From contig NW_005201791.1 in assembly GCF_000372725.1 (NCBI RefSeq), forward strand, positions 1 through 64,000: a stretch of 64,000 nucleotides of DNA, in the 5' to 3' direction. Shown piece by piece: positions 1 to 56,362 of the stretch (position 1 is its first letter; each line of letters begins with the position of its first letter). The notes beneath the pieces were generated by a model that was given only the letters and a program-made list of their open reading frames with translations, was not told the origin of the DNA and made no database searches. Both the position numbers and the translations under genes were made by a program. The stretch is from Emiliania huxleyi CCMP1516. Taxonomy: Eukaryota.

Positions 1-2331
1 GTCGGGTTGAGCGGGATGAGGTTGACGTGGCATTTGAGGCCCCGCAGCAGCTTGCCGAGCCTACTGAAAGAAAACAGTGAAACAAGAAGACCTCGGGGTG
101 CCCCGCAGCAGCTTGCCGCGCCGACGCGCGGTCGCGGCGTCGTCGTTCCGCCCGGCGATCAGCGCCTACAAAAAGAGAAAAAACACAGCGTGCGCAAGCA
201 AGAACAGAGCAAGAAAGCGACGGCGTCGCTCCGCGCGGCGATCGGCGCCCATTCGAACGTGAGGCGCCGGCCGCTGCGCTCCACGTAGTAGTGACACGCG
301 CCTACAAAAAGAAAACACGCCGGCTGAAAAAAGAAAACGCCGCGCTCCACGTAGTAGTGACACGCGCCTACAAAAAGAAAACACGCCGCCTGAAAAAAGA
401 AAACGCTGCGCCCCACGTAGTAGTGGCACGCGCCAATCAGCTCGTCGAGGTCGTGCCTCCGGTTGACGGGCCTACGCGCTGAGTACGCCACCCTCAGGGC
501 GGGAGATATGGGGAGATATGGGGAGATATGGGGAGATATGGGCAGCCTACGCGCTGAGGACGCCACCCTCAGGGCGGGAGATATGGGGAGATATGGGGAG
601 ATATGGGGAGATATGGGCAGCCTACGCGCTGAGGACGCCACCCTCAGGGCGGGAAGAGAGTGTGTTCAGAGCATCGCGTGAATACAACGGAGAAGACACA
701 GCGGAGTGCGCGTCCTCTCGGGCGCTGGTTGGGAGACATGAATCCGTGTTCCGCTTCTAGGTTGACGGGCATGATGGCGGAGCGCGCGACGTCGTCGGCC
801 TCGTGCAGCGAGATTGCGAGCCTGCGGGGAGAGATGGGGAGATGTGGGGAGATATGGGGCCTCGTGCAGCGAGATTGCGAGCCTGCGCGCTGAGTACGCC
901 GACATCAGGGCGGGAGGACGGTACTGCGAAGTGTCTTCAGAGCACCGGGGGAAGACAACGGAGAGGAAGGCAGTGAACACAGGCGGATACGGCGGAATGC
1001 AGCGGAGTGCGTGTCCTCTCGAGTGCTGGTTGGGAGACATGAACACGTATTCCGCTTCTAGGGCCCGAGACATGGGGAGAGGTGGGGAGAGGTGGGGAGA
1101 GGTGGGGAGAGGTGGGGAGAGGTGGGGAGAGGTGGAGGGAGAGATGGGGAGAGGTGGGGAGAGGTGGGGAGAGATGGGGAGAGAGGTCCGCTTCTAGGAT
1201 TGCGAGCCCGACCTCGAGCCCCTCCTCCGCAAACCGCCTAGAGATCGAAGACGGCGAGGCCTCCCGCGTGAAGAAGAAGAAGAAGAAGAAGAAGAAAGGA
1301 GAGAGAGAGGAAGAGGAGAAGGAGAGAGAGATGGAGAAAGAGAAGAAGAAGGAGGAGAAGAAGGAGGGGCTGCAGAGGGGCCGTATCGTTGATCACGGTG
1401 GGAGCGTCTTGGCCACAGCAGACTTAGCCCGCATAAGAGGCTCCCGCCGATCCTAGACCGCGTGTGCACCCCGGCGTGCCAGGGCACACTTAGACCCGCC
1501 AAGCCTCGAGGCTCAGAACTAGAGTAGATTAGAGAATTCGACTGCAGAGGGGGGCAGAGGCTGCCAATCCAACTCCCGATGCAATCTCGGGGAATCTCGG
1601 GGGATCTGCGCCGGATCTGAGGCGCGAGGCCGACCGTCGAGACTGTGACGTGGCGTGCGCCGATCCCAAGCTCGTCCATGATGCGCCTACTCTCGGGGAA
1701 TCTCGGGGAATCTCGAGGGAATCAGCGCGCCGACTCCCGAGCTCGCCCATGATGCGCCGCGCTGCGCCGACGACGGCGTCGTAGTTGCGGAACGGCTCGC
1801 CCATGCCCATGAAGACGACGTTGCTCAGCCGCTCGCCCCGCGCGCGCAGCTCGGAGGAGAAGCGCGCGGCCTGCTCGAAGATCTCCGCCTCGCTGAGGTC
1901 TCGCCGGAAGCCCATCTGCCCGGTCGCGCAGAAGGTGCAGCCCATCGCGCAGCCCACCTGCGACGAGATGCACGCGGTGCGCCTGAAGCAGAAAACGCGC
2001 CGCCTCTAAGAGAGGAACCACGCTGCGAGATTGCGACGAGATGCAGGCGGCGCTCCGCCGGTCGTCATACGGCATCAGCACCGACTCGATGAGCGACCCG
2101 TCGTGGCAGCGCCAGAGGCGCTTCTGCGTCCCGTCCTTGGACTGCTGCTCGAACTCGACCCCCAGTTCGCCCAGCGTGGCGTGCTCCCGCAATCTGGCGC
2201 GCAGCGCCTTTGGCAGCGTGTGCATCGCGTCGATGTCGCCCGCCGGAGCGTCGCCGTAGAGGCAGTCGCGGATCTGCTTGAGGCGGAACTTCGGCTGGCC
2301 CCAGTCCTTGAGCACGGCCTCGAGCTGCTCG
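1..2331 (-). CDS. rlmN: RlmN/Cfr-family radical SAM RNA methyltransferase; multi-exon, 5' end in the gap, 3' end beyond the window
   Basis: Exons give [42 protein letters not shown] (CxxxCxxC), [47 protein letters not shown] and [10 protein letters not shown]. Confidence 0.95.
472..770 (-). mobile_element. Introner-like intron copy A (rlmN)
   Basis: Minus strand reads CTAGAAGCGG...GCGTAG; 10 bp duplication gttgacgggc at 462-471 and 761-770; GC donor; element 3' end repeated three times with gggagatatg repeats. Confidence 0.85.
883..1207 (-). mobile_element. Introner-like intron copy B (rlmN)
   Basis: Same termini and internal motifs (agagcaccg, gtcctctcgag); duplication gattgcgagc at 873-882 and 1198-1207. 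Confidence 0.85.
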
Positions 2332-2432
2332 TNNNNNNNNNNNNNNNNNNNNNNNNNNNNNNNNNNNNNNNNNNNNNNNNNNNNNNNNNNNNNNNNNNNN
2401 NNNNNNNNNNNNNNNNNNNNNNNNNNNNNNNN

Positions 2433-3996
2433 GGCGGCGGCGGCGTGAGCGGTGGCGGCGACACTGTGTGAGAGGTGGAGGGAGGCGGAGGCGCGGGCGA
2501 GGTGGAGGTGGAAGGCGGCGGAGGCGTGGGCGGCGGCGGCGGCGGTGGGAAGAAGGTGGAGGGTAGCGGCGGCGTGGGCAAGGTGGAGGGCGGCGGCGGC
2601 GTGAGCAGCGGTGGCGGCGGTGTGGAGGGGGTGGAGGGCGGCGGCGGCGTGGGCGGTACGGCGGCACGGCGGTAACGGGCGGCAGGGGGGGCGGCGGGCT
2701 AAACGGCAAGGGCGGCGCGGCACGGAGGAAGGAGCGGCACGGCAGGGAGGAGCAAGGACGGCGCGGTAACGGCAGGATCACGGATAGGCGTGGCACGGAT
2801 AGGAGCGAGCGAGCGGCTAGGTGGCGGGAGGGCGAGGCGAGGGCGGCGGCGGGTGGATCACGAGGAGGTAGAAGGTCTGGCGCGAGCGGGGGGGCGAACG
2901 GCGAGCGAGCGGCTAGGCGGCGGGGGTGAGGGTGGCGGCGGTGGATCACGAGGAAGTGGAAGCCGAGCGCGAACGTGCGAGCGAGCGGCGAGCGAGCGGC
3001 TAGGCGGCTGGAGGGCGAGGCGAGGGTGGAGGCGGTGGATCACGAGGAAGTAGGAGGTCGAGCGCAAGCGAGCGAGCGAACGGCGAGATGGATCACGAGG
3101 AAGTAGAAAGTCGGGAGCGGGCGAGCGAACGGCGAACGGCGAGCGAGAGCGGCGAGGCGGCGGGAGGGCGAGGCGAGGGTGGTGGCGGTTCGGATCACGA
3201 GGAAGTAGAAAGTCGGGCGGGCGAGCAAGCGGCGAGCGAGCAGCGAGGCGGCGGGAGGGTGAGGCGAGGGTGGATCACGAGGAAGGAGAGATTCGGGCGA
3301 TCACGAGGAAGTAGAAAGCCAGGCGCGAGCGGGCGAGCGAGCGAGCGGCGGCGGCGTGAGCGACGGCGGCGGCGTGGGCGAGGTGGAGGGCGGCGGCGGC
3401 GTGAGTGGCGGCGGCGGCGGTGTGGGGGAGGTGGAGAGGCGCGGGCGAGGTGGAGGGCGGCGGCGGCGTGAGCGAGGTGGGGGGCGGCGGCGGCCTGAGT
3501 GGCGGCGGCGGCGGTGTGGGGGAGGTGGAGGGTGGCGGCGGCGTGGGTGAGGTGGAGGGCGGCGGCGGCGTGAGCGGCGGCGGCGGCGGTGTGGGAGAGG
3601 TGGAGGGCGGCGGAGGCGCGGGGGAGGTGGAGGGCGGCGGCGTCGTGAGCGGCAACGGCGGCGGTGTGGGAGCGGCAACGGCGGCGGTGTGGGGGAGGTG
3701 GAGGGCGGCGGAGGCGTGGGCGAGGTGGAGGGCGGCGGCGGTGAGCGGCGGCGGCGGTGGTGTGGTGGAGGTGGAGGGCGGCGGCGGCCTGAGTGGCGGC
3801 GGCGGCGGTGTGGGGGAGGTGGAGGCTGGCGGCGGCGTGGGGGAGGTGGAGGCTGGCGGCGGCGTGAGTGGCGGCGGCGGCGGTGTGGGGGAGGTGGATG
3901 GCGGCGGAGGCGCGGGCGAGGTGGAGGGCGGCGGCGTCGTGAGCGGCGGCGGCGGCGGTTTGGGGAAGGTGGAGGTCGGCGGAGGCGCGGGCGAGG
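2433..3996. repeat. GC-rich low-complexity tandem repeats
   Basis: Degenerate ggcggcggcgtg/ggcgaggtggag units, plus ggatcacgaggaagtagaa units at ~2850-3320. Confidence 0.85.
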
Positions 3997-4090
3997 TAAA
4001 TCCATGGTATTGCGCCTCGGCGAGCGTCCGTGCAAAGTGTACTAACCCCCCCCCCCCCCGGAAAAAGAACTAGGTGCTCGCGTGCAGCAA

Positions 4091-6144
4091 ATGCACGACG
4101 AGGTGCACGACGAGCTAGCTAACACCGTGGCGGAGACCGGCGGTCTTCCCCATGCGGTGTGGACAGCGGCCGGGCGAGGCGACGAGGCGGCGCTGCTGTC
4201 GTGGCTCGAAAGCGGCGGGCGGGTCAATGCGACTTGCATGCTACGCGATGTGAGCGGCGTCACCGCGCTGATGCTCGCCGCCCAGGAGGGCCACGAGCGG
4301 GCGGTCGAGCTGCTGCTTCAGCGCGGCGCGGAGGTCAACCTGCAGAAGAGCGACGGCTACACCGCGCTGATGCTCGCCGCCATCGAAGGCCACGAGTGGG
4401 TGGTCGAGCTGCTGCTTCGGCGCGGCGCGGAGGTCAACCTGCAGAACAGCGACGGCTACACCGCGCTGATGCTCGCCGCCATCGAAGGCCACGAGCGGGT
4501 GGTCGAGCTGCTGCTTCGGCGCGGCGCGGAGGTCAACCTGCGGAAGAGCGACGGCTACACCGCGCTGATGGGCGCCGCCATCGAAGGCCGCGAGCGGTTG
4601 GTCGACCTGCTGCTTCGGCGCGGCGCGGAGGTCAACCTGCAGAACAGCGACGGCTACACCGCGCTGATCCTCGCCGCCTTCAACGGCCACGAGCGGGTGG
4701 TCGAGCTGCTGCTTCAGCATGGCTCGGGTGTCAACCTGCAGAACAGTATCGGCTTCACCGCGCTGATGGGCGCCGCCGCCAACGGCCACCGCGCCACCGT
4801 GCTCCGCCTGCTGCGGGCGGGCGCGGATACGAAGCTGCGCTCTGCGAAGGGCGTGTCCGCACTGCAGTACGCCAGGGGGCAGGGCCACAGCGAGTGCGTC
4901 GAGGCCTTCCGGCAGCACATCGCGGAGGTGACTGCGAGCCGGCGCGAGGCGGCGGCGGGCGGCGCGGACGGCGCTTCCTCGGGCGAGGCGGCGGCGGGAG
5001 CGGGGGCCGCGGCCTCTTCCGGCTCACTGGGCAGCCTTCCCAACGAGGCGGTGGCAGCAGCTCTCCAAGGCGACGAGGCGGCGCTGCTGGCGTGGCTCGA
5101 CAGCGGCGGGCGGGTCAATGCGACTTGCCGGGCGGGCGATCTGAGTGGCGTCACCGCGCTGATGTACGCCGCCACCAACGGCCGCGAGCGGGTGGTCGAG
5201 CTGCTGCTTCAGCGCGGCGCGGATGTCAACAAGCAGAACAGCAACGGCAGCACCGCGCTGATCCTCGCCGCCAGCAAAGGCCGCGAGCGGGTGGTCGAGC
5301 TGCTGCTTCAGCGCGGCGCGGATGCCAACCTGCAGAGCAGCATCGGCGACACCGCGCTGATGCGCGCCGCCGCCAACGGCCACCCCGCCATCGTGCTCCG
5401 CCTGCTGCGGGCGGGCGCGGGTACGACGGCGTGCGATGCGCGCGGCAGGACGGCGCTACAGATGGCCAAAAGCAAGGGCCACAGCGAGTGCGTGCGCGCC
5501 CTCGAGAAGCGCACGGCAGCGCATGCAGCGGCGAAGGAGGCAGCGCAGGCAGCGGCGAGGGCGGTGGAGAGTGCGGCGGCAGAGGCGGAGGCGACGCGGC
5601 ATGCCGAGGCGCTGCTGGCGGAGGAGGAGGCGGAGAAGGAGGCGGGGCGCGCCAAGGAGAGCAAGAAGGGGAAGAAGAAGAAGAAAAGGGGAGGGGTGGC
5701 GGCGGAGGCGCTGGGCCGTCGCAGGAGCCCGAGGATGAGGCGGAAGATGCGGGAGAGGGCGAGGCGGCGGCGGCGGTAGAAGAGGCGGAGCTGGCGGCGG
5801 CGCTCGAGGAGAGCGCGAGGCTGGAGGGAGCGAGGCCGGTGGTGGAGGAGCGGACGCTTGTCGCTGCGACCGAGGGCGGCTCGCCGTCGGCTGCAGAGGC
5901 GCCGGCTGCGAAGGAGGAGGAGCCGCCGGCCGACTTCATCTGCCCGATCACGACCGAGATCATGGTCGAGCCAGTCGTGGCGGCCGACGGGCAGTCGTAT
6001 GAGCGGACGGCGATCGAGCGCTGGCTCGCGACCAAGTCGACGAGCCCTCTGACGGGCGGCGAGCTCGAGCATAGCATCTTAATCCCGAACCACAATTTGC
6101 GCCGGACGATTCGAGAGTGGCAGGAGGCGCGGACGGCACTTTGA
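4091..6144 (+). CDS. Ankyrin-repeat U-box E3 ubiquitin ligase, with an apparent 1 nt frameshift near 5685
   Basis: Many G.TALMLAA..GH..VVELLL..GA.VN repeats; C-terminal U-box PPADFICPITTEIMVEPVVAADGQSYERTAIERW..TSPLT..LIPNHNLRRTIREW lies in a different frame. Confidence 0.9.
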
Positions 6145-6816
6145 GCCCCCAGTGAAGATTAGCATCTAGCGCAACGGGGGGCAAGGGACCTAACTACCAA
6201 GCGGTGCCCAAGCCCGCGCCGCGCAGCGCCGGGGAACGCGATCCCTCGCGAGCGTGCTTGATGTGAGACATGTTGCATGTGCAGTTCCTTGGCTTGTTGC
6301 ATGCCAGCGCGGGCTGCCGGGACGCACCGCTCGCGCGTTCGGCACACTCAGTGGACCCCACCGAGTGTGCCGAACCAACTGGAGTGGGTAGGCTCGACGC
6401 CGCGCTCGCTGTGGGGCTGCAGCAAACTCGCCGCCGAGCGTGCCATCGAAGGCGTCCCGGCGGAGGTGATGGAGTGTGAGACCTGAGGCTACGGAGGTGA
6501 CGCCTGAGGTACCGGCCCGTGCACAGCGACTCAGCCGGCTACCGCCACGGGCTCAGACGAGACCTGTCGACGCGTTCCGGCTCAGCTTCACCGTGGTCAT
6601 CGGGCGTCTGTCGACGTCAGGACCACCCATGCAGCTCGCGGGTTTGAGGTCGCAAGAGCCAAGATGGTGGCGTTTGGACATCCCAACCATCACACAAGAC
6701 AGCCTGTAGGTGATGGCGGGACGGCGCAGTGTTTGTGGCACTCGGCAGTAGGCACCCGCGGCACGGCCCCGCTGTCGGCTCTCGCGGGCTGCGGAACCGG
6801 CCCCAGAAGGGGACGG

Positions 6817-7097
6817 TCCGGGCGAGTGTGGCAGCTCCTGCGCTAGTATGGGCACCCTCTATCACAACATTACTGATCCTGGTCATTAGAGCTGCCAGGG
6901 ATAGCGTCAGGAGCCGGTAGGAGTCAAAACCCCTCACATATTTGAGACATCGTGGGGCCTAAGGTAAGGTAAGGTAAGGTAAACTTCTCCACACACACGA
7001 GGTGGTGGGGCAAGGGGGGGCAACCCTCGCGTCTCCACGTCTGACGACAGGAGCCCCACGGCATTCAAAGTGCAAGGCCCAGTGCGCGTGGGTGAGC

Positions 7098-7163
<66 letters not shown>

Positions 7164-7419
7164 ACGTCACTGCATCCTCCGCCGGTTCCTCCCGTCGCCT
7201 CTTCTTTGTTCGAATGTTTTTCAATCCATCCTTCACGAAGCCCTCCCATGTAGCTAGCGTTCTTGGCGAATGTCTCCGGGCGAGTGTGGCAGCTCCTGCG
7301 CTAGTATGGGCACCCTCTATCACAACATTACTGATCCTGGTCATTAGAGCTGCCAGGGATAGCGTCAGGAGCCGGTAGGAGTCAAAACCCCTCACATATT
7401 TGAGACATCGTGGGGCCTA
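6817..7419 (+). repeat. 145 bp direct repeats (6817-6961 and 7275-7419) flanking a retroelement fragment; a related copy lies at ~39685-39810
   Basis: Sequence tccgggcgagtg...cgtggggccta occurs twice, identical by eye. Confidence 0.9.
6962..7274 (-). mobile_element. 5'-truncated non-LTR retroelement/SINE 3' end with (CCTTA)n tail
   Basis: Minus strand reads ...(CA)n...gccttgcactttgaatgccgtggggctcctg...gtgtggagaagtttaccttaccttacc; homologues at ~21741, 23840, 25703, 54072 and 62930. Confidence 0.8.
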
Positions 7420-7424
7420 TATAT

Positions 7425-7714
7425 GGCTAGTTCCAATTCAGAGTCTGACACGCTAATCTTGAAAACGCGTCCAACGGAGCTCCGTGTTGCTCCCAGCGCC
7501 CTCCCCCGAGCTTCCTGCGGCCATGGCCGGTGCTACTAGTATGGGGGGCTACCTGGCTACCGCGAGCGCGACCCAACTCGTCGACATCGTCCGATGATGG
7601 TGCCGCAAAGTCAGCCTCCGGAGGCTATCGTGGGGTCGAGCCGGCAGTAGCCGCGACATGTGGTTCCACCACCCCTCGTAGGCTTTGCGTCTGCTCGCCA
7701 CCGTTCCCATGCTG
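7425..7714 (+). repeat. Dispersed repeat; inverted copy at ~15745-16042
   Basis: agttccaattc...caacggagctccgtgttgctcccagcgccctcccc...ccaccgttccca matches the reverse complement of 15745-16042. Confidence 0.85.
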
Positions 7715-25515: not shown

Positions 25516-25703
25516 GGGTTAGGGTTATTAGGGTTAGGGTTAGGGTTAGGGTTAGGGTTAGGGTTAGGGAAGGGCTAGTCTTGTTGTGTCTGTATATGCT
25601 AGCGTTGCAGGGTTCTGCGCTGGGTTCTGGCCCCCAGCGCCGACGACTAAGACTCAGTCCCGCACGCTGACCTAGGGTTAGGGTTAGGGTTATAGGGTTA
25701 GGG
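25516..25703 (+). repeat. Interstitial telomeric (TTAGGG)n, two tracts
   Basis: Tracts at ~25516-25569 and ~25673-25703. Confidence 0.95.
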
Positions 25704-26690: not shown

Positions 26691-27452
26691 NNNNNNNNNN
26701 NNNNNNNNNNNNNNNNNNNNNNNNNNNNNNNNNNNNNNNNNNNNNNNNNNNNNNNNNNNNNNNNNNNNNNNNNNNNNNNNNNNNNNNNNNCCCTCTCCCT
26801 CTCCCTCTCCCTCTCCCTCTCCCTCTCCCTCTCCCGCTCCCTCTCCCTCTCCCTACAGGACAGGCTGGCATGCCTAGTCCAGGACGTGTCCGAGACATGT
26901 CCCATCTAGGCGCCCTACAAGAAAGCCGCCGTGAGGGCGGGCCGGAGTTGTGCGCGGGTCCGGAATACGCCGCGGATGCGCCCGAGTGGCGCGGGAGGGG
27001 AGCCGCGCCCCCCCCCGAGTGTTTCGTCTTTGTGTGGTCGCTGGAGTGATCTGAGGTTGTACGGACTTTGAAAGACCGATGGGAGCGGCGTGTGGATTTG
27101 AGGTTGTACGGACACACTGGCATGACGCGTGATTGTGATGAACTCCCCTCCCTCCACCCGCGACCCGGCAGCACACCCTGCACGCTCCCATCGGATGGGT
27201 TCCACCCCGCTGATCAGACAGGGCGCGGGGCGAGCCACATCATCACCGGCTCGCGGCAATAAGGACACTCTCGCATCAGCTCGGAGCATGGACCGCAAAC
27301 GCACAAGTGGCTGCACGGCACCGCGAGGTGAGACTTCGGCCGCTCGAAGCATATGATGCACGACGTCTCTCCCCCCATCTGATCGATGTTTTTCCGTTCA
27401 ATACGTCTTTTTACGAAGGGTATAAACCAAAGCGACTCAGCGCTGAGGCGTC

Positions 27453-34262: not shown

Positions 34263-34761
34263 CCGGCTGTGCGCTACTGTGGCGGGGGCGGGGAGGCGCG
34301 CCGGCGAGGCTGATCCGTTCGGGTTGAGGCTGGACCGCGTCTTCATGAACGGGTCGTGCTCCTACGTGCTGCGTACGCCAACCTCGGGGCGGGAGATCTG
34401 GGGAGATCTGGGGAGATATGGGCGGCCTACGTGAGCAACAGCACACCAGCCTCGGGGCGGGAGTACGGTGTCGTGCGGAGTATATGGCCATGCATACGGC
34501 GGTGTGCAGAGTATTAGTGGTGCATATACCAACGTCGGGGCGGCCTACGTGCTGAATACGCCAACCTCGGGGCGAGGAGACGGTGTTGTGCAGAGGGTTC
34601 AGAGCACCGCGTGAATACGAGGGGCTACGTGGTGTGCTTCTGGGGGCGTGGTCCTTCATATACCACACGAGGCCGATGTCGTACTGGGCGCGCTGCGCGG
34701 CGCTCCCCTCAACCGCGAGCCGGCTCAGCGCATACCTTCCCGCAGAGAGAGAGAGAGAGGT

Positions 34762-40826: not shown

Positions 40827-43800
40827 TCGGTCCCTGCGTCGCCCGTGCCTGTAGTGGCGCGCGGTGAGCCGCAAGTTGCAAAGCCGGCGAGGCGCGGGTC
40901 GTCGGCCGCAGCAACAGCGAGCGCAGAGCCGCCGATGGCGCCGCCTCCGGCCGTGCCACGTCGCTTAGCGCTGGCTGCGACGCGCGCATCGCCAAAGCCG
41001 CCGGCGGCGGCGCCGGCGGCGGCATTACCACTGCCAACCCCGCCGTTCGCGCCGCGGGCCACCGCCCTCGACTGCGGCCGAGGGGCGCGTGGCGCCGGCT
41101 TCGCGTCCGCGCTTGCCGCGCCGCTCAGCCGCTTGTGGATGAGCGCCACCGCGGCGGCGGCGACGAGGAGGAGGAGCGGCACCTGAAGCGAGAGGAACCA
41201 CGACGAGAGGGCGGTGCCGACACCAACCTCTGACCACTCCTCCTCCCCCTTCCCGCCCGCGAGCATGCCGAGGAAGGCCTCGAGCGGCGTCGCCTGCAGC
41301 GGACCGCGCCGCAGCACGGCCGCGGAGGCGACGGCGAGCAGCGGCGCTCCGGCGGCAACCATCGGCGCGAGGGTCGGCAGGTCAGCGAGGGTGGGGGCCT
41401 GTGCCATGAATCACACCGAGGTCAGGGAGGGAGCATAGCGATGTGCAGAGGACCCGAGCACCGCGGGAAACACGAGGGATGCGAAGGCAGGGAGTACAGC
41501 CGAATGCGGGCCGAGTGCAGCGGAAGACGCGTCCTCTCGAGCGCTGATTGCAATCCAAGAATGCGTCTTCCGCTTCTAGGAGTGGGCCGTCCCGCCGCCG
41601 CCGAGGGCGAGGGTGCAGCCGGCGGCGGCGAGGAGCGCGAGCGGTCCGGCGCTGAGTGCGGCGGCGGCGCCGTCGGGGGAGAGCCACTCGGAGAGGGTGA
41701 GGCGAGTCTTCTGCCCGCCCTGCCCGCCCTGCCCGCCCTGCCCGCCCTGCCCGCCCTGCCCGCCCTCGCCGCCGTCGCCGCCGTCGGTCGCGGCTGGAGG
41801 GGAGCGGAGGGCCGCGCCGAGCAGCGAGGTGTCCCGCCGCGCCAGGAGGAAGCCGCCTGAGGGACGTGTCCTGGACGTGTCCTGAACGTGTCCTGGACGT
41901 GTCCCGCGGCATCAGCAGGAGGCCGCCGAAGAATGCGCGGCTCGACAGGCGCTCGTCCAAGTGGTGGTGCGGCGCGCCGCCGCCCACGCCGAGCAGCGAT
42001 GCGTTGGCGGGGAGGGCGCTTCCCGCGAGGGCGGCGAGCGTCGCGTTGCCGCCCTGCGCCGCCGCCCCGCCCTCGTCGCGCGGCTGCCCCAGGCTGCCGA
42101 GCGTCCGCGAGGACGGGAGCAGCGACGCGTCGAGCGCGCCCAGCGCGGCGGCCAGGCTCAGCACGCACGCGGCGAAGAGGACCCGCTCAGTGCATCCAAG
42201 CCGGCGCACCTCGCCCCCGTCCAGCGCGGCGGGGCGGCCGAGCGCGCGCACCCGCCACAGGGCGAGGGCGAGGCGGAGCTTGAGGAGCAGCTTGAGGCCG
42301 CAGAGCAGCAGCAGCGCCGCCTCGGTGTACACCATCGCCTGCGCCTCGCCCCGCGCGCCAACGTCGCTCGCCGCCCAGCCCGTGAGCCTCTCGTACCCGT
42401 CGACCACGTCCACCGCCACCGCCGCCGGCAGCAGCAGCAGCACGGTGAGCCCGCCGCCCGGCACGCGGTGCGGAGAGCGCGCGAGGAGGGCGAGGGCGAT
42501 GTCCACGTCGAGGCGCACGAGCAGCATGAGCAGCGAGGCAACCTAGACGAGGTGCGGGCGAGGTGCGGGCGAGGTGCGGGCGAGGTGCGGGCGAGGTGCG
42601 GCCGAGGTGCGGCCGAGGCGAGGAGCGGCGCACCAGCAGCGCCCACGCGACAGAGAGGCCCCTCCGAGCGGCCGCCTTGAGGACGTGCAGCCCGTCGGCC
42701 GAGGCGAGCGACGAGATGGCGGCGAGTAGCTGCGTGACGGTCGCGATGGCGAGGCCTGTGCGCACCGGGGGAGGGGGGGCGTGGGAGGGGCGCAGGAGGC
42801 CGTCGGCGGCGCAGGAGGCCGTGGACGAGAAGACGTGGAGGACGACGGACGTGTCTAGGACGTGTCTAGGACGTGTCTAGGGCGTGTCTAGGACGTGTCT
42901 AGGACGTGTCTAGGACGTGTCTAGGACGTGTCTAGGGCGTGTCTAGGACGTGTCTAGGACGTGTCTAGGACGTGTCTAGGACGTGTCTAGGGCGTGTCTA
43001 GGACGTGTCTAGGGCGTGTCTAGGACGTGTCTAGGACGTGTCTAGGGCGTGTCTAGGGCGTGTCTAGGACGTGTCTAGGGCGTGTCTAGGGCGTGTCTAG
43101 GACGTGTCTAGGGCGTGTCTAGGGCGTGTCTAGGGCGTGTCTAGGGCGTGTCTAGGGCGTGTCTAGGGCGTGTCTAGGGCGTGTCTAGGGCGTGTCTAGG
43201 GCGTGTCTAGGGCGTGTCTAGGGCGTGTCTAGGGCGTGTCTAGGCGGTGGCCGTGGACGAGGATTAGCGCGACGACGGTGCAGAGCTGCAGCTTCTCAAA
43301 GAGGGAGAGGTGGGCGAAGCCGCAGCAAGCGGGAGCGTGCGCGAGCTCGGCGGCGTAGAGGGCGAGCGCGGACGAGAGCAGCAGCAGCAGCGTGCAGTGC
43401 AGGTACACGGTCGACCAGAGGAAGCGAGTGCACTTGCGTGGTGACGAGCGGCACGTGCCCGAGTCGCGGAGGCAGCCGAACGCGGCGACCATCGAGAGGA
43501 CAGGGAGCTCGAGCAGCGGCGCGGAGAGGGACGGCGCGATCCCCTCGCTGCCGTAGAGGACGCCGACAGAGCCGAGCAGCAGCGAGAGGAAGCCCAACGC
43601 GAAGAGCGACTTTGAGAGCGCGAGCTGCCGCTCCTCCGCCCTCTGCCGCCGGAACCCCTCGGCGAGCTCCTCCGCCGCGTCCCTCGACAGCGTGTCGCCT
43701 GCGATGGCCGAGCGCGCCTCCGCCTCGTCGACGTCCTCGGCAGCGCCGCCTAGCCGCGAGACTACCCGAGATGGCCCGAGATGACCCGAGGTGGCCCGAG

Positions 43801-46253
43801 ATGGCGCGAGATGGCCCGAGATGACCCGAGGTGGCCCGAGGTGGCGCGAGATGGCCCGAGATGGCCCGAGATGGCCCGAGATGGCCCGAGATGGCGCGAG
43901 ATGACCCGAGATGGCCCGAGATGGCCCGAGATGGCGCGAGATGGCGGCGCACGCCTAGCCGCGCGCTCCTCTGGCGCAGCTTGAAGACTCGCGCCGCCGC
44001 GGCGTGCTCGAGCCGCGCCTCGGGGAAGCGGAACGGCCGCGTGGGTAATCTCGGGTAATCTCGGGTAATCTCGGGTAATCTCGGGTAATCTCGCCGCGCC
44101 TCGGGGAAGCGGAACGGCCGCGTGGGTAATCTCGGGTAATCTCGGGTAATCTCGGGTAATCTCGGGTAATCTCGCCGCGCCTCGAGGAAGCGGAACGGCC
44201 GCGTGGGTAATCTCGGGTAATCTCGGGTAATCTCGGGTAATCTCGGGTAATCTCGGGTAATCTCGGGTAGTCTCGCCGCGCCTCGGGGAAGCGGAATGGC
44301 CGCGTGGGCGCCGCCGGCTGCGAGTAGTTGAGGTAGGTGCCGCTGAGGAGGAGCGCGAGCTTGAGTGGCGCGGCGAGCACCGTGCAGAGCAGCGCGAGCC
44401 GCCCCTGCAGCAGCAGCGACCAGAGGTAGGCAGGGTTCAGCCACGCGACACCCGCGGCTAGCCCCGCGGCGCAAGGCACCCCGGCCAGGGCCGGCCGGCA
44501 GGGCGCGCCGCCCCCCCGCGCTCCTCCGACGCCAAGCCAGTCGGCGTCGACTGCGAGCGCGAGCAGGGCGGTGCCGAGCAGCGCGCGGGAGAAGTACAGC
44601 CGCGACTCGCTCTGCCCGAGCGTGGCGAGGAGCCCGAGCGCGCACGACGCGTCGGCGCGTAGCAGCGAGAGGACGCAGCCCACGAGGAGGAGCGCGCGGC
44701 CCAGGTACTCCTCCAGCGCCGCGCCGAGGTCTTCGCCACCGCAGAGCCCGGCGGCGCCGCTCTCGGCGCCGCCGGTCGGGAGCCCGCCGCCCCGCTTGGC
44801 GTTGCGACCCGCCGCTCGCGCCGCGGCGGCGTCGCGCTGGCCGGTGGCCTTGCGTCCCTCGGTGAGGAGGAAGAGGCAGACTGCCTTGAGCGTGATGATC
44901 GGCAGCAGCAGGAAGAGGAGCGTGAGCGTCTCGTCGTTTGCGCGCATCGAGGCGGCCCACCCGAGCGCTCTCTCCATCAGTGTGTACGGGTCCCTGCCCG
45001 CCGCATCCCCTGCACCCGCCGCGCCGCCGCCGCCGCCGTCCGCGCCGCCGCGCGGGAGGAGCGGGGCGGAGGAGGGGGGCGAGGGCGGGAAGGAGAAGAG
45101 GGATGGGTCGGAGGAGTGCACGCCCGCCACCAGCCACAGGCCGTCGGCCGTGAGCGACGCCTAGGGAACTGTCTAGGAAGTGTCTAGGAAGTGTCTAGGA
45201 AGTGAGCCACAGGCCGTCGGCCGTGAGCGACGCCGCGAGCAGCACGGCGCCAAAGCGGAGGCGCGGGCCCTGCTGCGAGTACGCGGCGGCGATGTTGTAC
45301 ACTGCGGCGGCAAACGTGCCGTCGCGCCGAAGCGGCTGGACCAGCAGGGCGAAGAGCGCGAGCGCGACCAAGTGCGGGATGAGAGACTCTGAGACGAGCT
45401 CGACGGCCTCCTGCGCGCCGCCGAGCCGTACCGAGCGCGAGTTGGCTCGCAGCTCTGCGGTGTGCCTGCGCGAGCGCCGGAGCTTTTGCGAGATGGCCTC
45501 CCGCTCCGCCCTGCGGCGCGCCTCGCGCTGGTAGGGCAGGCACGTGGCGCGGTGCGTCTGCTGCTCCGAGAACCTGTACTTCCTCCCGCACGGGCAGTCG
45601 GCCACCGTCCTACGTGCCGAATACGCCAACCTCGGGGCGGGAATACGGCACTGCGCAGTGTCACCAGAGCACCGCGTGAATACAAGGTCACTACAGTGAA
45701 TACGGCTGAATACGGCCGAGTACAGCTGAACACGTGTCCTCTCGAGCGCTGCTAGGAATGCAAGAACATGTCGCCTCTAGGCCACCGTCCGCAGCTCACA
45801 GGAGAGCACGTGCGAGGCGTAGCTCGCGGGCGTGAGGTTGCGGCCGCACCCAAACGGGCAGGGGCCGGCCGCGTAGGAGCAGCTGCGGTAGTGCTGCGAG
45901 AGCTCGGAGACGCGTCCCTTCCAGCTGCAGCCGTGCGCCTTGTAGATGCAGCACGAGCGCATGCGCGAGAGCAGCTTGGCCGCCATCAGGTTTGGCTGCA
46001 GGTCGCCCTCTTTCAGAGGCGCGAGGCACTCGGCGCAGCTCTCCTCGCCTTCGCGCAGCCGGCCGCGGATGCACGCGCCACAAAAGGTGTGGTGGCACGG
46101 CGTGAAGAGCGGGTCCTTCTCCAGAACCTCCTCGCAGATCGGGCAGGTGAGGTATACCAGCGACTCGGAGAGCTCCGCCTCGTTGAGCGTCTTGAAGATG
46201 GAGCGCGACGAGTGCGACTCGTCGAGGCCCAGCGCCTCGCGCTCGTGGCGCAT
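40166..46253 (-). CDS. RING plus TRAF-type zinc fingers followed by a long multi-pass membrane region; probably one multi-exon gene
   Basis: CPIC..PCHHTFCGAC..CAEC, CIYKAHGCSW..HYRSC and CPFGC..HVLSC; frame continues across intron 45610-45789 into hydrophobic exons; 3' end uncertain. Confidence 0.65.
41399..41587 (-). mobile_element. Introner-like intron copy D
   Basis: CTAGAAGCGG...GGCACAG with gtcctctcgagcgct and gagcaccgcg motifs; degenerate duplication gcccactc/gcccccaccc. Confidence 0.75.
42847..43243. repeat. Intronic 11 bp tandem repeat gg(a/g)cgtgtcta
   Basis: About 36 copies. Confidence 0.95.
43763..44300. repeat. Intronic 10 bp tandem repeats (gagatggccc and ctcgggtaat) with reiterated exon pieces
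   Basis: Seen directly in the sequence. Confidence 0.9.
45610..45789 (-). mobile_element. Introner-like intron copy E (RING gene)
   Basis: CTAGAGGCG...GGCACGTAG; duplication gccaccgtc at 45601-45609 and 45781-45789. Confidence 0.88.
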
Positions 46254-49115: not shown

Positions 49116-50953
49116 CAGGGGGCGGGCGCCGCCGGCCGGGAGCGCTTGTCGGGTCCCTCTCTGTCAAATCTGATATCATAAGTCGAATCAGAGCGGCGTC
49201 GGCGTTGATCTGAGCCGCCGTGTGTGACACATATTGCGGCATCGGCCCGGAGGGCCGGGTAGGAGGGGTCTAGGTTACCTCTACCTCTGAGGGCCTGCGG
49301 CCCTCTTATCGATGCGGCACGTGTGACGTGAGTGTCGGTGAGAGACATATATTGGGGTTTGCGGGGAGAGCCCCGCCCCGGGCCCGGCGCGCGCAGCGCG
49401 CGGGGCGTTTTTTATGCAAACATGCAAACGCGGGACGTCTGCGCAGCCTCTAACTATCAAAATTCAACATTTCCACACCACCCGTATTTGCAACTAGTCC
49501 CATGATGCATGAAGAGTCGGTGGCCTCAAGAACGTAAGAGCCGTCTGCCGCTTGCTTGTTTAAAAAGAGCAGGCAAAGAAAGAGGACGCCACGCTGCGGA
49601 AGATGTAAGAGACGAGAGTGCTTGTGTATGAAGACACTCAGCCAACGTGGCTACCACACATCCTGAGCGGACTCCCTAGTCACCCGCGGCCGGACTCCAT
49701 CCGGCACGCGTCGCTGGGCGCTCAGAGCCGCGTCCCCTGCTCGCCACCCCGACGCTCACAAGGCGCCCGAGTCGAACGACAGGCGGCACGCGAAGACTGG
49801 TTGCAATCCCGCCGACCGCCAGGCCGCGGGATGATGTGTGCGTGGTCTTGTAGTGGGTCTCGGAAGCTCCCCTCTCGGGCTAGGAGCCTACCCCTCTCCC
49901 TTCCAGCTCGTCCGCGTCGCCCGCCGCCGCCCGCCTTGCTGGGGGCACGGTGTGCACCGCCTCCGCCGTCCACGCCTCCCGCAACGCCGCGCCGCGGCCC
50001 TCGCCCAGCCGCTGGAATGCTTGGTCGGTCCGCCACCACCGTTCGCCTTGTCCGCCGCTCGGGCCGCCGCCGTCAGCGCCGCGCCCCCGCCGACGAACAC
50101 GAGCGGATACGTGCCACCGCCACCCTCCGGTCCGCAAGAGCTCCTTATCAGCTGGTCGGCCGCCATGTGGGCCTCCGGGCCTGCCGCGGCGGCGCGGCCG
50201 ATCGAGGCCGGGCTCGGCCCGGCCCGCGACGGCTGGCCGCCGACGAGCGCGCTCGCGCTGCTCGTCAAGATGGCGGCGGTGGCGATTGCGGCGACGGTCG
50301 TTCAGTCGTTCAGCGCTCAGGCGTCTGTCGTCTGTCGTCTGTTGTCGCATTTCGCACACGCGCGCGCCGCGCGACCCGCGCGTCGCTCCGCGAGGGCATG
50401 AGCCTTCCGCGATTCGATTTCGCAGCCAAAAGCTGCTGGCTCGAACCGCGGCCGACTCTGCCACCGCGGCTGCAGCTGTTGAGCCCTCCAGAAAACTGGT
50501 GCCTCATATGCTGCCTCCCTGCGGATGCTGCCGGCAGCCTGGCGGTCCGCTGTACCTCAAGGAAGTGCAGACTCGACCCCCCCCCGCAATCTTCTACCCC
50601 CACGACTCGGAACACGAATGTGACAGGACCATCGGGTCCTTCAGCCACCAATGCGAGATCACCCGAGAGCAGCTGAGTCTGCCTCTGGCCTCGCCTCCCT
50701 CTCCTTCAGGCATTTGTGGCATCCTATGGGTCGTCCAGAGTATCGACCTCTGGCGAGTCAGCCAGCCCCACTTTGAGGGCGCCATGAAGTACAGCGATCA
50801 CCATCTCGCTGGCCTCTCCGCAAGGCCTCCCGACCGCGTCGAACTCATCGGCGCGGGCTCTCTCGGCTACGGGACCGGCCCCAGCTTCGGCTGAGGGCTG
50901 ACAAGCTGCCGAGCCCAAATCACGTGAGAGCCGTGATTTCTTGTTGGTTTTCC

Positions 50954-51051
<98 letters not shown>

Positions 51052-51206
51052 GTGGGTGTCGGTGGGCCTGACGCAATGAGACACGCTCCGCTCCAAAAGC
51101 CTCCCGAACGTTGGATTCGCACCGTAACGTCTATCTAACCGCCCGCCGCGCGGCCTGACTCATCATCACCTCACTACCGACCAACGCAGGCGCATCGTCA
51201 CGCGCC

Positions 51207-51305
51207 GGATGTAGAGCTCTACAGCTCTACAGCACTCTACAGCGCTCCAGAGCGCTCTACGTCTCTACAGCTCTACAGCGCTCTACACTCTACATCCTCT
51301 ACACC
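51207..51305. repeat. Small palindromic ctctaca-repeat element
   Basis: Inverted ends ggatgtagag / ctctacatcc with internal ctctaca repeats. Confidence 0.7.
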
Positions 51306-51455
51306 CTCAGCTCGCACCTCAACCTCTCACAGACCAGCGCACAGCGCCATACGAGGACCGGCCGCAGCACATAAAAGGGTGGGCGGGCAGTGGGCGTGTG
51401 TGCGCGCGCGGTGGTGACTGGTGTGTGTGTCCGGTGTGTGTGTGTGTGTGAGTGA

Positions 51456-51498
<43 letters not shown>

Positions 51499-51870
51499 TG
51501 AGAGTGAGTGAGTGAGTGTATTGTGTGACCGCTGTGTGTGTGTGTGTGGACTGTCGACTGTGAAAGGATACAGGACCATCGGGTTTTGAAACAGAGATGA
51601 AGAAAAATGGCATGGCATGCGTGTAACGTGTAAGTATACAGTAACGCGTACTAGTAGTACAGTGAGTGATCTACACCCTTCCCACTAACTGTACCAATCC
51701 TCGCTCCCACCTTCACTTCCAGCCCTAGCAGTCCGCCTGGTCCATGCTGAGCGGCGGCGCGGGAAGGTTAACGCGCTGCGTCGATCCACAGATACAGATG
51801 CGGCACACGCAACGCGCCAAAAGGAGCAGCGAGGTTGGCGTGCCCCGTGGCCTCGCCCTGTGCCTAGCCG

Positions 51871-52933
51871 CTAGTCGGCGGACGCCGCCCTCTGCAGCTC
51901 GCGCGCAGAGGCGAGGAACTCGTCCAAGCCCATCTCGCGCAACAGCACGAGCGCGTGCGCCTAACGAACGACTCAGTCATCGATGAATGGAGGCCCATCT
52001 CTCGCGCAGCAGCACGAGCGCGTGGCGCCGCGCGCAGCTCGCGGCAGCTGTGCGCCGCAAAAGCGTCGGCGCCGAGCAGCGTGGCGAACTCGGCGTACTG
52101 GCGCGCCTGCGCCATCTGCGCGAGGTGCGAGAAGGGCCCGTCGTACTCCGGCGAGGGGAAGGAGGCGTCGAGCTGCGAGAGGAAGCAGGCAGCGAAGGAG
52201 TCATTGAGCGCCGCGGTGTCGGCCGGAGAGCACGCCACGGCGTGCGTCGCTTCGGCGATGGAGAAGCGGAACCAGACGTTGCGGTAGCCCCACACGCGCA
52301 CCGCCCGCGCAGCCTCGGGGTCGCCCTCCCGCCACAGCCGCAGCGCCTCCGCCACCGCCTGAAGCACCTTGAAGTGCGTGTCTGGGCCGGAGCCCTCCGG
52401 GTCGAACGCCACGGTCACCACATCCGGCCTCGTCTCCTAATTGACTCATTCATCACGAGTGGAGCTATTGACTCTCATTGCAGCCGCCACGTCGAGCCCC
52501 GTCTCCTCGAGGGCGGCGAGGATCGGCCTCGCGTCTCGCCGTGTCGGCTCCTCGGTAAAGCGCTCGCCCTTGTAGAAGCCAAGCCGCAGGTGCGACACCT
52601 GTGCCGTCCAAAGCCGTGGTACGCCCAGATTAGCCGAGATCGGCCGAGATCGAGAGCGGCCGAGTATTGGGCCGAGAGTACACCTCGTTCCGCCCGAAGC
52701 CGTGGTAGGCCCAGAGCAGGTCGGCCTCGAACTCGCGCAAGCCGCCCTTGAGGCGCTGGAGCAGCGGCGCATCCTTTGCGCCGTCGAGCTGAGGTGACAT
52801 GTCTCGGGCATGTCACGGACGTGTCGTGGACATGGAGGTCCGAACGGGGCGGCGAGCGGCTCCTGCGATGCGAAGTAGTGCGCCGCGGCGGAGCACGCAT
52901 CTGCGAGGAGGGCGGGAGAGGCGGAGGGAGAGA

Positions 52934-52967
<34 letters not shown>

Positions 52968-54390
52968 TGCACGCGAGAGTGACGACGCCAGCTGCGGGGC
53001 GAATGCGCCGAGCTCCTCCTCCGCCTGTACTCATCATGAATGATGACTGACTCATGCTTGACTCATCAAGGCGAATGCGCGGCTCCTCCTCCGCCTCTCG
53101 CGCAAGCAGCACCTCTTGAGCACACCGCGCTGTCCGCTGAGCCACCGCCGCCCTCAGCCCCGCCTGGTCGCGCGCTGCGAGGGCGGCCAAGTACCTCCTT
53201 GCGTCCGCGTCGGGGCCGGCCGGGCCTATGATATGAGATCAGATGAGATCAGATGAGATCAGATGAGATGAGATGTTTGTCTGTGTGTTTGCATGTGTGT
53301 GTGCAGAGAGAGACCGAGCCTGCGTCTGGCGCCAGTCCTCCTGCCGCACAGAGTGCCGCGAGGGGGGAGTCCTTGCGTCGGAGCTCGGCGGCGGCTGCCT
53401 CGAGCCGCTCGCGCGCGAAGGCATTTGTGACGGCGTTGAAGCCCGACGTGGCGTAGAGGAAGCGGTGCGTTGCGGTCGGGTCACGCACGAGGCGGCGGAC
53501 CAGTGGCAGGTAGCCTGTTCATGTGAACGACAAGTCACGAGTGATAGTCGCGTTAGAGGCGCGGTGCGCCCAGCGGCGGGTACCGAGCATGATGTCGTCA
53601 TGGTGCGGGGCCGTATGGACGTATGACCGGCCAGGCACGTCGGAAGCGCCCGCCGCCAGCCTCGCCTGCAGTGCTTGCTTCACCGCCGCCGCCGCCGCCG
53701 CCACAGCCTCCCTCTCCATCGCCGTTATGCCACGGCCGCCGCTGCCGCCGCCGTTGCTGCCGCCGCCGCCGCCGCCATCGCCGCCGCTGGCGAGGGCGGC
53801 GGCGCAGCGGGGATGGGACGCAACGTCGTCTGGAGTGAGCTGGTCGAGCCGCTTGCCAAGGCAGAGTGCGAGGTCGCAGAATGCGTCCACCGCGGCAGGC
53901 GGAACGGCGGCGGCGGCGGTGGTGGCGGCGGCGGTGGTGGTGGCGGCGGCGGTGGTGGTGGCGGCGGCGGCGCTCCAGCTGGACAGTGGCGGCGCGGCGC
54001 GGAGGGCGGCGATGGCGTCAATGTCGCGCCGCGCCCCGAGCTTGCTTGCAGCTGAGCGGGTCAGTGCGAGCCTAAGGTAAGGCAAGGCAGGGCAAGCGTC
54101 TCCACACACACGAGGTGGTGGGGCAAGGGCCATGCAACCCCCTCGCGACACGTCTAGACGACAGGAGCCCGCGTAAAACGTGCAAAGCCCGGTGTGCGTG
54201 GATGAGCGGTGTGGTGTGCGTGAGCTTGTGGGCGGTGTGAGTGAGTGAGTCAGTCAGTCAGTGAGTGTGAGCGAGTGTGCGAGTGCGTGCTTGCGCGCGT
54301 GTGCGCGCGTGTGCGTGTGTGCGTGTGTGTGCGTGCGTTGCGCGCGTGTGCGTGCGTGCGTGCGTGCGTGCGTGCGTGTGTGCGTGTGTG

Positions 54391-54466
<76 letters not shown>

Positions 54467-56362
54467 AGTGTGCGTGTGTGTGTGCATGTGTGTGTGTGCA
54501 GAGCCTTGCAGAGGGCAAGCAGCGAAGCGCCGAGCCAGGCACCGCGTCGCTCGCGGGCGCCTCGCACGCTCGCTGCACCACCCGCGCCTTCGCATCGCCC
54601 GCTGCCATGAGGTAGGCGACGCAACGCTCGTTGAAGCAGACCGTGCCGAGGCCGATCGTCACCACCTGGGAGAGGAGAGGGCAGTCGCGGGACCCTCGCG
54701 GGCAGCCGGGAGGTGCAAGCAGCAGGGAGATGCAAGCAAGGAGAGGACGCATATGCTGAGAGGTGCCGAACCCATACTGTGACCTCAGAGCATATGGCCA
54801 GGGGATAGGCGGCAGCGGCGTGGAGAGGGGCAGCGTGGGTGGAGCCCACCGCGCCGCGCCGCGCCGCCTCGATCCCGCCCAAATCTCCCGCCGCCGCCGC
54901 CTGCGTCGCGTAGTTTGTCTTGGTCAGCCGCGTCACGGAGTGCCGCCCCGAGCCTAGTCCACACGCGCGGATGACTCACGAACGAACGACTGGCGCCAAT
55001 CCACACACGCGGAGTACTTATGAATCAATCAGTTGGCCAACCGCGTCGTGGAATCCCCCCCCCCCCCCCCCTCCTCCCCCTCCGGCGGCGGCGGCGGCGG
55101 CGGTACGTCTTGGGTCTGCAAGTAGAAGTAGCCCGCACCGGCGCAGTTGAAGGCGACGTGACCGTCCGGACCGATGCCTGCGGGATAAATCGCACCGATG
55201 AGTCGCACCGATGAGTCCCGCCTCGAGGGCATGGGGTGTGGGGAGTACCAAGAGAGATTGGGGCGGAGCTGTTCCGCCTCTAGGAAGTCCGGGCGGAAGC
55301 GCGGCTCTTGTGCAGAGTAGTCAGAGCACCGCGCGAACACGAGGGAGGCGAATACAGCTGAGTACGGCTGAATACGGTGAAGCGCAGCGGAAGACGCGTC
55401 CTCTCGAGCGCTAGTCTTGGAATGCATGAATATACGCTTTCTTCTAGGGCCCGACGCCGCCCAGGAAGAAGCCGATCCCACCCATGCCTCGCACCTTGGC
55501 CTCGAAGTCGCTGCAGTACTGGTCGACCTACGTGCTGAATACACCAACATCAGGGCGGGAATACGGCACTGCGGAGGGAGAGCACCGCGTGAATACAAGG
55601 GAGGCGACTACAGTGAATACGGCTGAATACGGCCGAACACAGCTGAGTACGTGTCCTCTCGAGCGCTACTTGATATACAAGAATCTGTCCCGCTTCTAGG
55701 CTGGTCGACGGCGGCGAGCGCGCGCTTCTGCGCCGCCTCACGTGCCGTGGCCGCCTGCGCACAAGGCATTGGAGTGGCCGCTGCGAGATCACTGCTCTGC
55801 GCCGCCTCGCGCGGACCGCCTCGCGATCGCGCAGCGTAAGGTCGACGCCGTCAGCGAAGAGCTGCCCGGCGTCGCAGCCGGCGTCGCAGCCGAGCGTCCA
55901 GAGGCCGTCCATCAGCAGCGCCTTGTCTGCGTCCAAGCCGATCGCGTCGATGTAGAGCAAGCGCACGTAGTTTGTGAAGCGGTTCGGGTGGTCAGGGTGC
56001 ATCGGGTAAAAGTCGTCGAGCTGGACGAACCGGAGCGAGGCCATATCGGGGACGCCAGCAGAGAGGCTGATCCCTCCTTCCCGCAACAGCTGCAGCGTCG
56101 ACGGGTCGGCCGACGCCCAGCCACGCAGGAGGCGGCTGGTCCAGGCGATAAAGTGCTCTGGTGTCCGGCCGGTTGGCAGCGCAACCACGCCGTCCGGGTG
56201 GCTCTGCGCCCACTCCAGGAATCGGAAGGCGCATAGGCGGCCGAGCGCGGGGAAGCTGTCCACTTCGATGACACCAATCTTCTCTTCGCCGAGCCGGAGG
56301 GCGGAGCGACCGCTGGCAGCAAGGGCCGCTTCCTCGACGGCGGAGCGATCGCTGGCAGCCAT
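51871..56362 (-). CDS. nagB: Glucosamine-6-phosphate deaminase fused to a PIG-L/LmbE-like deacetylase domain (long NagB type); multi-exon
   Basis: [79 protein letters not shown] and [14 protein letters not shown]. Confidence 0.92.
54072..54504 (-). mobile_element. Intron derived from the retroelement 3' end (nagB)
   Basis: (CA/CACG)n, then ggctcctgtcgtc...ccaccacctcgtgtgtgtggaga...ccttaccttag acceptor; aggctc at both junctions. Confidence 0.82.
55178..55457 (-). mobile_element. Introner-like intron copy F (nagB)
   Basis: CTAGAAG start with family motifs; duplication gcgtcgggcc/gcatcggtcc. Confidence 0.75.
55528..55709 (-). mobile_element. Introner-like intron copy G (nagB)
   Basis: CTAGAAGCGG...TTCAGCACGTAG; duplication ctggtcgac at 55519-55527 and 55701-55709; GT donor comes from the duplication. 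Confidence 0.88.

What the first reader, a model, noticed from the sequence alone, without database searches (positions are those of the whole stretch)
472..55709. Introner family with ~10 bp target duplications: seven homologous introns in four unrelated genes
Seen: introns at 472-770 and 883-1207 (rlmN), 34362-34653 (GT90), 41399-41587 and 45610-45789 (RING-TM), and 55178-55457 and 55528-55709 (nagB) share a core of up to ~180 bp. In transcript orientation it begins CTAGA(A/G)G (CCAGAAG in copy C) and typically ends ..CAGCACGTAG. Each is flanked by a 9-10 bp exon duplication starting with G (gcccgtcaac, gctcgcaatc, gacggtggc, gtcgaccag; degenerate in C, D and F). The upstream duplicate provides the donor (GC, GT or GA) and the element end provides the AG, so splicing restores the frame exactly (IMPVN, GLAISLH, GGIGPDGH). 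All seven are in sense orientation. Known: introners of Micromonas and Aureococcus are non-autonomous DNA transposons that carry one splice site and co-opt the other from the target duplication. Inference: this is a moderately diverged introner family; a 9-10 bp TSD would fit a Mutator-like mobiliser.
Basis: partly seen in the sequence, partly recalled or inferred. Interest (0 to 1): 0.92.

Follow-up and report, generated by a model that had tools for sequence, protein, structure and literature searches.

The report
Intron-making transposon family in Emiliania
Seven introns in this stretch of the bloom-forming alga Emiliania huxleyi are related copies of one 181-base repeat that likely spread as a DNA transposon and is spliced out exactly, which may help explain why this alga's introns so often start with GC or GA instead of GT.

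Summary
Real, with corrections. The seven introns share one element (HMM 70-151 bits; shuffles at most 7.5). RNA contigs skip E, F and G exactly (GA-AG, GC-AG, GT-AG). Transcript-derived proteins confirm A and move B's final acceptor to 822. At 49 further sites from metagenomes, the duplication sits at one fixed offset and spans 8 site-specific bases, not 9-10. The G after the AG closes an imperfect 17-bp inverted repeat (CCTA...TAGG), so it likely belongs to the element. The target is palindromic about that 8-mer, with T2 and A7 enriched. This leans to a hAT-like or unclassified transposase rather than Mutator; no autonomous partner was found. The donor is the target's G plus the first duplicated base: 18 GC, 5 GA, 4 GT, 1 GG of 28. 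The family is old (median 78% identity) and shared with wild populations. The host is Emiliania huxleyi. Its introner families in the two survey supplements searched look different (37-70 nt). Absence in relatives is supported only indirectly. The scan had not noted this sequence before.

The parts
472..770 (-). Intron A in rlmN, GC-AG. Donor G 770, 8-bp duplication 762-769 and 463-470, element from 761 to the terminal G at 471; 3' end present three times with 10-bp minisatellite between
   Evidence: (8 of 8 match); P0003/P0138/P0141 read through
822..1207 (-). Intron B in rlmN, GC-AG, corrected acceptor. Element part 883-1207 (outer 5' end 1198, inner 5' end 1062); 822-882 is a copy of the exon start plus minisatellite plus AG
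   Evidence: 883-1207 alone is out of frame against P0003
34362..34653 (-). Intron C in a GT90-family gene, GA-AG (inferred); 5'-deleted element with three 3' ends; duplication 6 of 8
   Evidence: ungapped alignment to P0124 and P0126 across the junction
41399..41587 (-). Intron D in the RING gene, GC-AG (junction unconfirmed); element 5' end at 41580, spacing 2 nt short
   Evidence: HMM 106.5 bits; homologues uninformative; present in L051 at 99%
45610..45789 (-). Intron E in the RING gene, GA-AG, RNA-confirmed; duplication 8 of 8 (45781-45788, 45601-45608); one terminal C missing
   Evidence: joint of 180 nt in X11 and X12; ungapped at the junction against 8 of 8 homologues
55178..55457 (-). 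Intron F in the nagB-like gene, GC-AG, RNA-confirmed; duplication 6 of 8; second 5' terminus at 55284
   Evidence: joint of 280 nt in X11
55528..55709 (-). Intron G in the nagB-like gene, GT-AG, RNA-confirmed; cleanest copy: element 55527-55700, duplication 55701-55708 and 55519-55526 (8 of 8), donor G 55709
   Evidence: joint of 182 nt in X11

Best explanation
The seven introns are copies of one 181-bp element with short imperfect inverted ends, spliced out exactly, and likely spread long ago as a non-autonomous cut-and-paste DNA transposon. Steps: (1, inferred) a transposase supplied in trans cut a loosely palindromic 8-bp target (T at 2, A at 7 favoured) and duplicated it. (2, shown in sequence) The element runs CCTAG...YAGG, so its acceptor AG lies one base from its end. 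(3, shown by RNA for E, F, G and by proteins for A, B, C) Where a G precedes the target, that G plus the first duplicated base is the donor (GC, GT or GA). The intron removes G + 8 bp + the element except its last G, which stands in for the lost G, and the message is restored. (4, inferred) Selection kept only sense insertions after a G not followed by G. (5, shown as structure, mechanism inferred) Copies later gained end duplications and 10-11-bp minisatellites. Odds on the mobiliser: hAT-like 40%, unclassified DDE transposase 35%, Mutator 20%, other 5%.
For: Homology. Splicing. Duplication at one offset only, 6.02 of 9 matches against 3.46 permuted (maximum 4.04 in 1000), 49 sites. Positions 2-9 match 0.70-0.94 against 0.28-0.53 expected; position 10, 14 of 33 against 0.29. 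End complementarity 39, 44, 40, 30 of 49 at the four outermost positions and 7 of 49 one base further out; consensus ends 13 of 17. Target symmetry r 0.69 at centre 5.5, at most 0.27 at the 19 other centres, P about 1e-4; T 12 of 28, A 12 of 28 against 0.17 and 0.16. Splice filter: G before the target, but its mirror C in only 8 of 28; G as second base in 1 of 49; 22 of 22 neighbouring hits on the anchor's strand. nTnnnnAn and 8 bp are stated for the hAT element Hermes (PMC10368747 passage).
Against: No empty-site allele seen: no DNA joint at E, F or G in X1 or X8. No autonomous element found. No non-intronic copy was identified, so '8 bp plus terminal G' and '9 bp starting with G' cannot be separated directly. 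T2 and A7 occur together in only 3 of 28 sites. CC...GG ends do not match the CAG/TAG starts of the Tisochrysis hATs. Five of six non-element introns in rlmN also start with a copy of the next exon, so junction duplication also arises in other ways here. The AG end of the 49 copies is partly built into the model (seeds were chosen on it). Sixteen of 49 sites did not show the duplication at the standard offset until end rearrangements were allowed for.
Confidence: 0.85

Rival explanations
1. Mutator-like introner with a 9-bp duplication beginning with G; the element ends at AG.
For: Spliced product is the same. Positions 1-9 are identical in A, B, E, G. MULE duplications are 8-11 bp and their inverted repeats can be as short as 14 bp (PMC6446971 passages).
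Against: The G after the AG pairs with the first C in 39 of 49 copies, against 7 of 49 one base further out. Target symmetry is r 0.69 at the even centre 5.5 and -0.36 at centre 5.0. Internal duplicated 3' ends in A, C, L014 and L042 also carry the G.
Confidence: 0.08
2. A repeat was captured at double-strand breaks or pasted into introns that had been made by tandem duplication of exon sequence; the flanking repeat is repair microhomology, not a transposase footprint.
For: Five of six non-element rlmN introns begin with a 22-32-nt copy of the next exon, as do 45161-45233 and 55755-55819. In 5 of 6 copies with a changed first C the new base equals the exon.
Against: One fixed offset and length at 31 of 49 sites, inverted ends in register and a palindromic target are not expected from repair.
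Confidence: 0.04
3. RNA-mediated spread (reverse splicing of an excised intron, or SINE-like retroposition).
For: Strict sense bias (7 of 7; 22 of 22); no intergenic copy recognised.
Against: Reverse splicing would not duplicate 8 site-specific bases inside the intron; inverted ends and target palindrome point to a DNA transposase; no Rfam family at gathering score in four longer copies; no A-rich tail. Sense bias also follows from selection.
Confidence: 0.03

Closest known systems
TIR/TSD introners that carry the acceptor and co-opt the donor (Symbiodinium microadriaticum example, Gozashti et al. 2022, PMC9860276 Fig. 2B; passages read). Micromonas and Aureococcus introners of Huff et al. 2016 (paper not held; known here through PMC9860276 and recall)
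   Same: Non-autonomous, inverted ends, target duplication, acceptor carried, donor from the insertion site, message restored.
   Different: 8-bp rather than 4-bp duplication; donor G lies outside the duplication and the element's last G becomes exonic; copies only about 78% alike; frequent GA donors.
Listed Emiliania huxleyi introner families (PMC9860276 Supplementary Tables 5-6: 653 copies, 5 families; PMC12130899 Dataset S2: 3 families; supplement rows read)
   Same: Same host; one family is typed 'co-opt 5' carry 3''.
   Different: Listed lengths 37-70 nt, no GA donors, duplications of 2-4 bp or not called; none has the 180-190-nt size. Sequences were not compared; files 13 and 14 of PMC12130899 were not searched and the 2022 file was cut when stored.
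hAT superfamily MITEs (Hermes; Tisochrysis lutea Ace and Shanks)
   Same: 8-bp duplication and 10-25-bp inverted repeats (PMC3942097); nTnnnnAn target, imperfect 17-bp ends and subterminal repeats (PMC10368747); hATs occur in haptophytes including E. huxleyi (PMC10138859 section 2.4).
   Different: Ends are CC...GG, whereas Ace starts CAG and Shanks TAG; no transposase linked.
piggyBac
   Same: Ends begin with CC (PMC10813416 passages).
   Different: piggyBac duplicates 4 bp, mostly TTAA; here 8 variable bases.

Membership tests
Introner | Many sequence-similar introns in unrelated genes, similarity reaching both intron ends | tested here: met
   7 in 4 genes; 49 unique full-length sites among 104 loci
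Introner | Spliced out of the RNA at the element's boundaries | tested here: met
   RNA joints for 3 of 3 copies laid (E, F, G); proteins for A, B (corrected), C; D open
Introner | Intron absent at the orthologous position in relatives | tested here: inconclusive
   Homologous proteins on 8-65 kb contigs run through sites A/B, C and E (P0016, P0124, P0132), but their DNA was not seen
TIR DNA transposon (MITE) | Terminal inverted repeats | tested here: met
   13 of 17 in consensus; outer four positions 30-44 of 49 copies
TIR DNA transposon (MITE) | Site-specific target duplication of fixed length | tested here: met
   positions 2-9, permutation-controlled
TIR DNA transposon (MITE) | Autonomous partner with the same ends | not testable with these tools
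   no genome held; none in the window or in viral contigs
hAT | 8-bp duplication | tested here: met
   direct proof needs non-intronic copies
hAT | nTnnnnAn target preference (Hermes type) | tested here: met
   T 22 of 49, A 19 of 49; 12 of 28 each in intact sites, both in 3 of 28: a weak preference
hAT | Ends starting CAG or TAG (seen for Ace and Shanks; general rule recalled) | tested here: not met
   ends are CCTA...TAGG; not filed as hAT
hAT | hAT transposase in an autonomous copy | not testable with these tools
   no autonomous copy in hand
Mutator (MULE) | 8-11-bp duplication | tested here: met
   8 bp is at the low edge (PMC6446971); the 9-10 bp claimed is not met
Mutator (MULE) | Typically long inverted repeats | tested here: not met
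   17 bp, imperfect; short ones exist in the family, so this does not exclude it
piggyBac | 4-bp TTAA duplication | tested here: not met
   8 variable bases

The most novel reading that the evidence does not exclude
This family and its decay products made a large share of Emiliania's introns. The GC/GA donor majority is a fossil of donors taken from exon sequence, and the short introns made of an exon copy plus a 10-11-bp minisatellite are what remains after an element intron's acceptor junction is duplicated and the element is lost. The mobiliser is an undescribed transposase with CC...GG ends and an 8-bp nTnnnnAn target.
Probability: 0.25. Interest if true: 0.88.

Novelty: new variant of a known kind. 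Interest (0 to 1): 0.64.

Why it matters
E. huxleyi has 56-65% GC and about 4% GA donors, which PMC4028052 ascribes to high GC content (passages). Here the donor's second base is simply the first base of a transposon target, giving 18 GC, 5 GA, 4 GT and 1 GG in 28 sites. That offers a testable alternative cause for part of the bias. The family may be abundant: 7 copies in 62 kb here, which would scale to thousands or more per genome if typical (an extrapolation from a selected window). It shows that old introner bursts stay readable at 78% identity and can be missed where gene models mis-call GC and GA donors. The model is also a direct aid to annotation: EMIHUDRAFT_223465 and EMIHUDRAFT_108867 mis-splice these sites.

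Tried and rejected
No whole genome is held, so no genome-wide count. Viral contigs: 0 matches to the core pattern; 5 matches to a 17-nt end motif, none with an HMM hit, read as chance. RNAalifold on 4 copies: no convincing conserved structure, covariation term +0.88, 3 of 37 pairs with a double change. Rfam on 4 longer copies: one match far below gathering score. An upstream GT donor at E was considered and is excluded by the 180-nt joint. A GC donor 6 nt into C would add two residues that homologues lack. A 10-bp duplication (G..C) is rejected: position 10 matches in 14 of 33, and the exon has C there in 10 of 33 against 27 of 33 in the intron. No solo element ends suggesting a long copy in the window, apart from one isolated motif at 27452. 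Runs X13 and X14 did not bridge F, G or E; no conclusion is drawn. Pfam and PDB gave nothing for the first nagB-like exon. Rows dropped: of 135 HMM hits in 104 loci, 58 were full length with flanks and 49 remained after removing repeats of a site; 33 had the duplication at the standard offset, 28 of these with a donor G; 45 of 49 had enough flank. Literature: searches listed no paper describing this family; only listings were seen for most. The 2013 genome paper and Huff 2016 are not held. Repbase and Dfam could not be searched.
Full report
Host and context. The window is 64.5% GC with six N gaps. Two exons are 100% identical to proteins named Emiliania huxleyi CCMP1516 (EMIHUDRAFT_223465; EMIHUDRAFT_108867). 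No whole genome is held. All four genes lie on the - strand. Pfam supports radical SAM, GT90 and RING. The nagB name rests on a recalled motif (negative).

Homology. BLASTN links the seven introns at about 68-90% identity over the shared parts. A scan of metagenome contigs with an internal two-part pattern gave 104 loci, 87 distinct. An HMM of 178 positions from 30 of these, without flanks, hits all seven window introns at 70-151 bits and no other locus of the window at E 0.1; shuffled windows reach 7.5 bits. Among 49 distinct full-length sites, median pairwise identity is 78%, nearest-neighbour median 84%, maximum 93%. The burst is therefore old. Sites D, E, F and G recur in metagenome contigs at 98-99% identity (L024, L038, L048, L051), and run X8 (organism B) holds F unspliced.

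Splicing. One RNA contig (X11 record 1) skips five introns of the nagB-like gene, among them 280 nt at F and 182 nt at G. X11 and X12, two samples of one study, skip 180 nt at E. Enumerating equivalent cuts leaves GC-AG at 55178-55457, GT-AG at 55528-55709 and GA-AG at 45610-45789 (G also allows a CC-AG cut, which is no donor). A spliced walk against transcript-type proteins P0003 and P0141 fixes A at 472-770 and B at 822-1207, each without ties; 883-1207 alone is out of frame. C aligns without a gap to two of three homologues tested and with a gap away from the junction in the third. D is unconfirmed. These are assembled contigs, so splicing efficiency is unknown.

The duplication. With ends set by the HMM alone, the exon after the AG matches the sequence before the element at one offset only: 11 nt before the conserved TAG, 6.02 of 9 bases against 3.46 permuted (maximum 4.04 of 1000); the other 11 offsets are at chance. 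Position by position, with copies selected on the other positions, 2-9 match at 0.70-0.94 against 0.28-0.53 expected. Position 1 is G on both sides (27 of 33, expected 0.80). Position 10 matches in 14 of 33 (expected 0.29, p 0.07) and position 11 at chance. Of the 16 sites set aside, most have shifted spacing or a duplicated end with minisatellite, and several show the duplication at the outer end.

The ends. The consensus with CC before and G after is 181 bp, and its first and last 17 bases are complementary at 13 positions. Per copy, the outer four positions pair in 39, 44, 40 and 30 of 49, and the next base outward in 7 of 49. The motif GTATTC recurs nine times, five of them at about 10-bp spacing, and its complement three times (one mismatch allowed), like subterminal transposase sites (inference). 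The rebuilt target is palindromic about the middle of positions 2-9 (r 0.69; other centres at most 0.27; P about 1e-4), with T at the second and A at the seventh base of the 8-mer enriched. An even centre allows 8 or 10 bp, and position 10 is not duplicated, so 8.

Mechanism. Before: exon-G-N8-exon. After: exon-G-N8-[CCTAG...YAG-G]-N8-exon. The spliceosome cuts before the target's G and after the element's AG, and the element's last G replaces the lost one. Three asymmetries point to selection for splicing rather than target choice. The G before the target has no mirror C (8 of 28). GG donors are nearly absent (1 of 49). All 22 further hits near an anchor copy are on its strand (some are internal duplications or repeats of one locus). 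Splicing is shown; transposition, the mobiliser and selection are inferred.

Later change. Six of 45 copies have the acceptor junction duplicated as exon copy + minisatellite + AG (null mean 0.07, maximum 1), and 8 of 45 have the 5' end duplicated around a CTCCCC repeat. B has both. The same exon-copy architecture makes up five of six non-element introns in rlmN, where all eight mapped donors are GC or GA. Loss of the element from a B-like intron would leave such an intron. This is a hypothesis; those introns may also arise without the element.

Comparison. Introners with this logic are known (PMC9860276 passages and section 15; PMC12130899 passages and section 6). E. huxleyi is listed there with families of 37-70 nt. 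That survey needed annotated introns and similarity starting within ten intronic bases; here similarity starts at base 10, and ab initio models favour GT donors, which may explain a miss. It works like a hAT MITE in duplication length and target, but fails the hAT end motif. It shares CC ends with piggyBac but not the TTAA target. Mutator remains possible. I do not file it in any superfamily. An earlier scan note on another genome found junction repeats that reflected splice consensus; the permutation tests here exclude that for positions 2-9. No look-alike of this sequence was on record.

Verdict. A real, old introner family, apparently undescribed within the searches named, with a corrected geometry. 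Confidence 0.85, interest 0.64.

Noticed in passing
window 61-121, 166-248, 302-433, 1687-1757, 1983-2055 (-): Five of six non-element rlmN introns begin with a 22-32-nt copy of the next exon; donors GC or GA, none GT.
   Followed up: partly
window 45161-45233 and 55755-55819 (-): RNA-supported GC-AG introns of the same type; the first has a perfect 29-nt exon copy, then 11-bp repeats containing CCTAGA, the element's first bases. That repeat draws very many contigs in RNA and DNA runs.
   Followed up: partly
window 42850-43244: 36 copies of an 11-bp unit that reads like the element's first six bases joined to part of its 3' end; possibly derived from element ends.
   Followed up: no
window 54666-54849 and 54954-55138 (-): RNA-defined GT-AG introns of 184 and 185 nt, close to the element-intron size, with no HMM hit; possibly older or different elements.
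   Followed up: no
L019, L072, L074, L033; window C and L014: Longer 3' variants shared between unrelated loci, ending in YAG-G, several with a matching duplication; composite subfamilies were probably mobile. No Rfam match.
   Followed up: partly
L067, L020, L076, L011, L040: In 5 of 6 intact copies whose first C is changed, the new base equals the downstream exon base: a hint of conversion from the spliced junction or of template switching between the duplicated copies.
   Followed up: no
window 25516-25569; L035: Interstitial GGGTTA/TAACCC telomere-like repeats.
   Followed up: no
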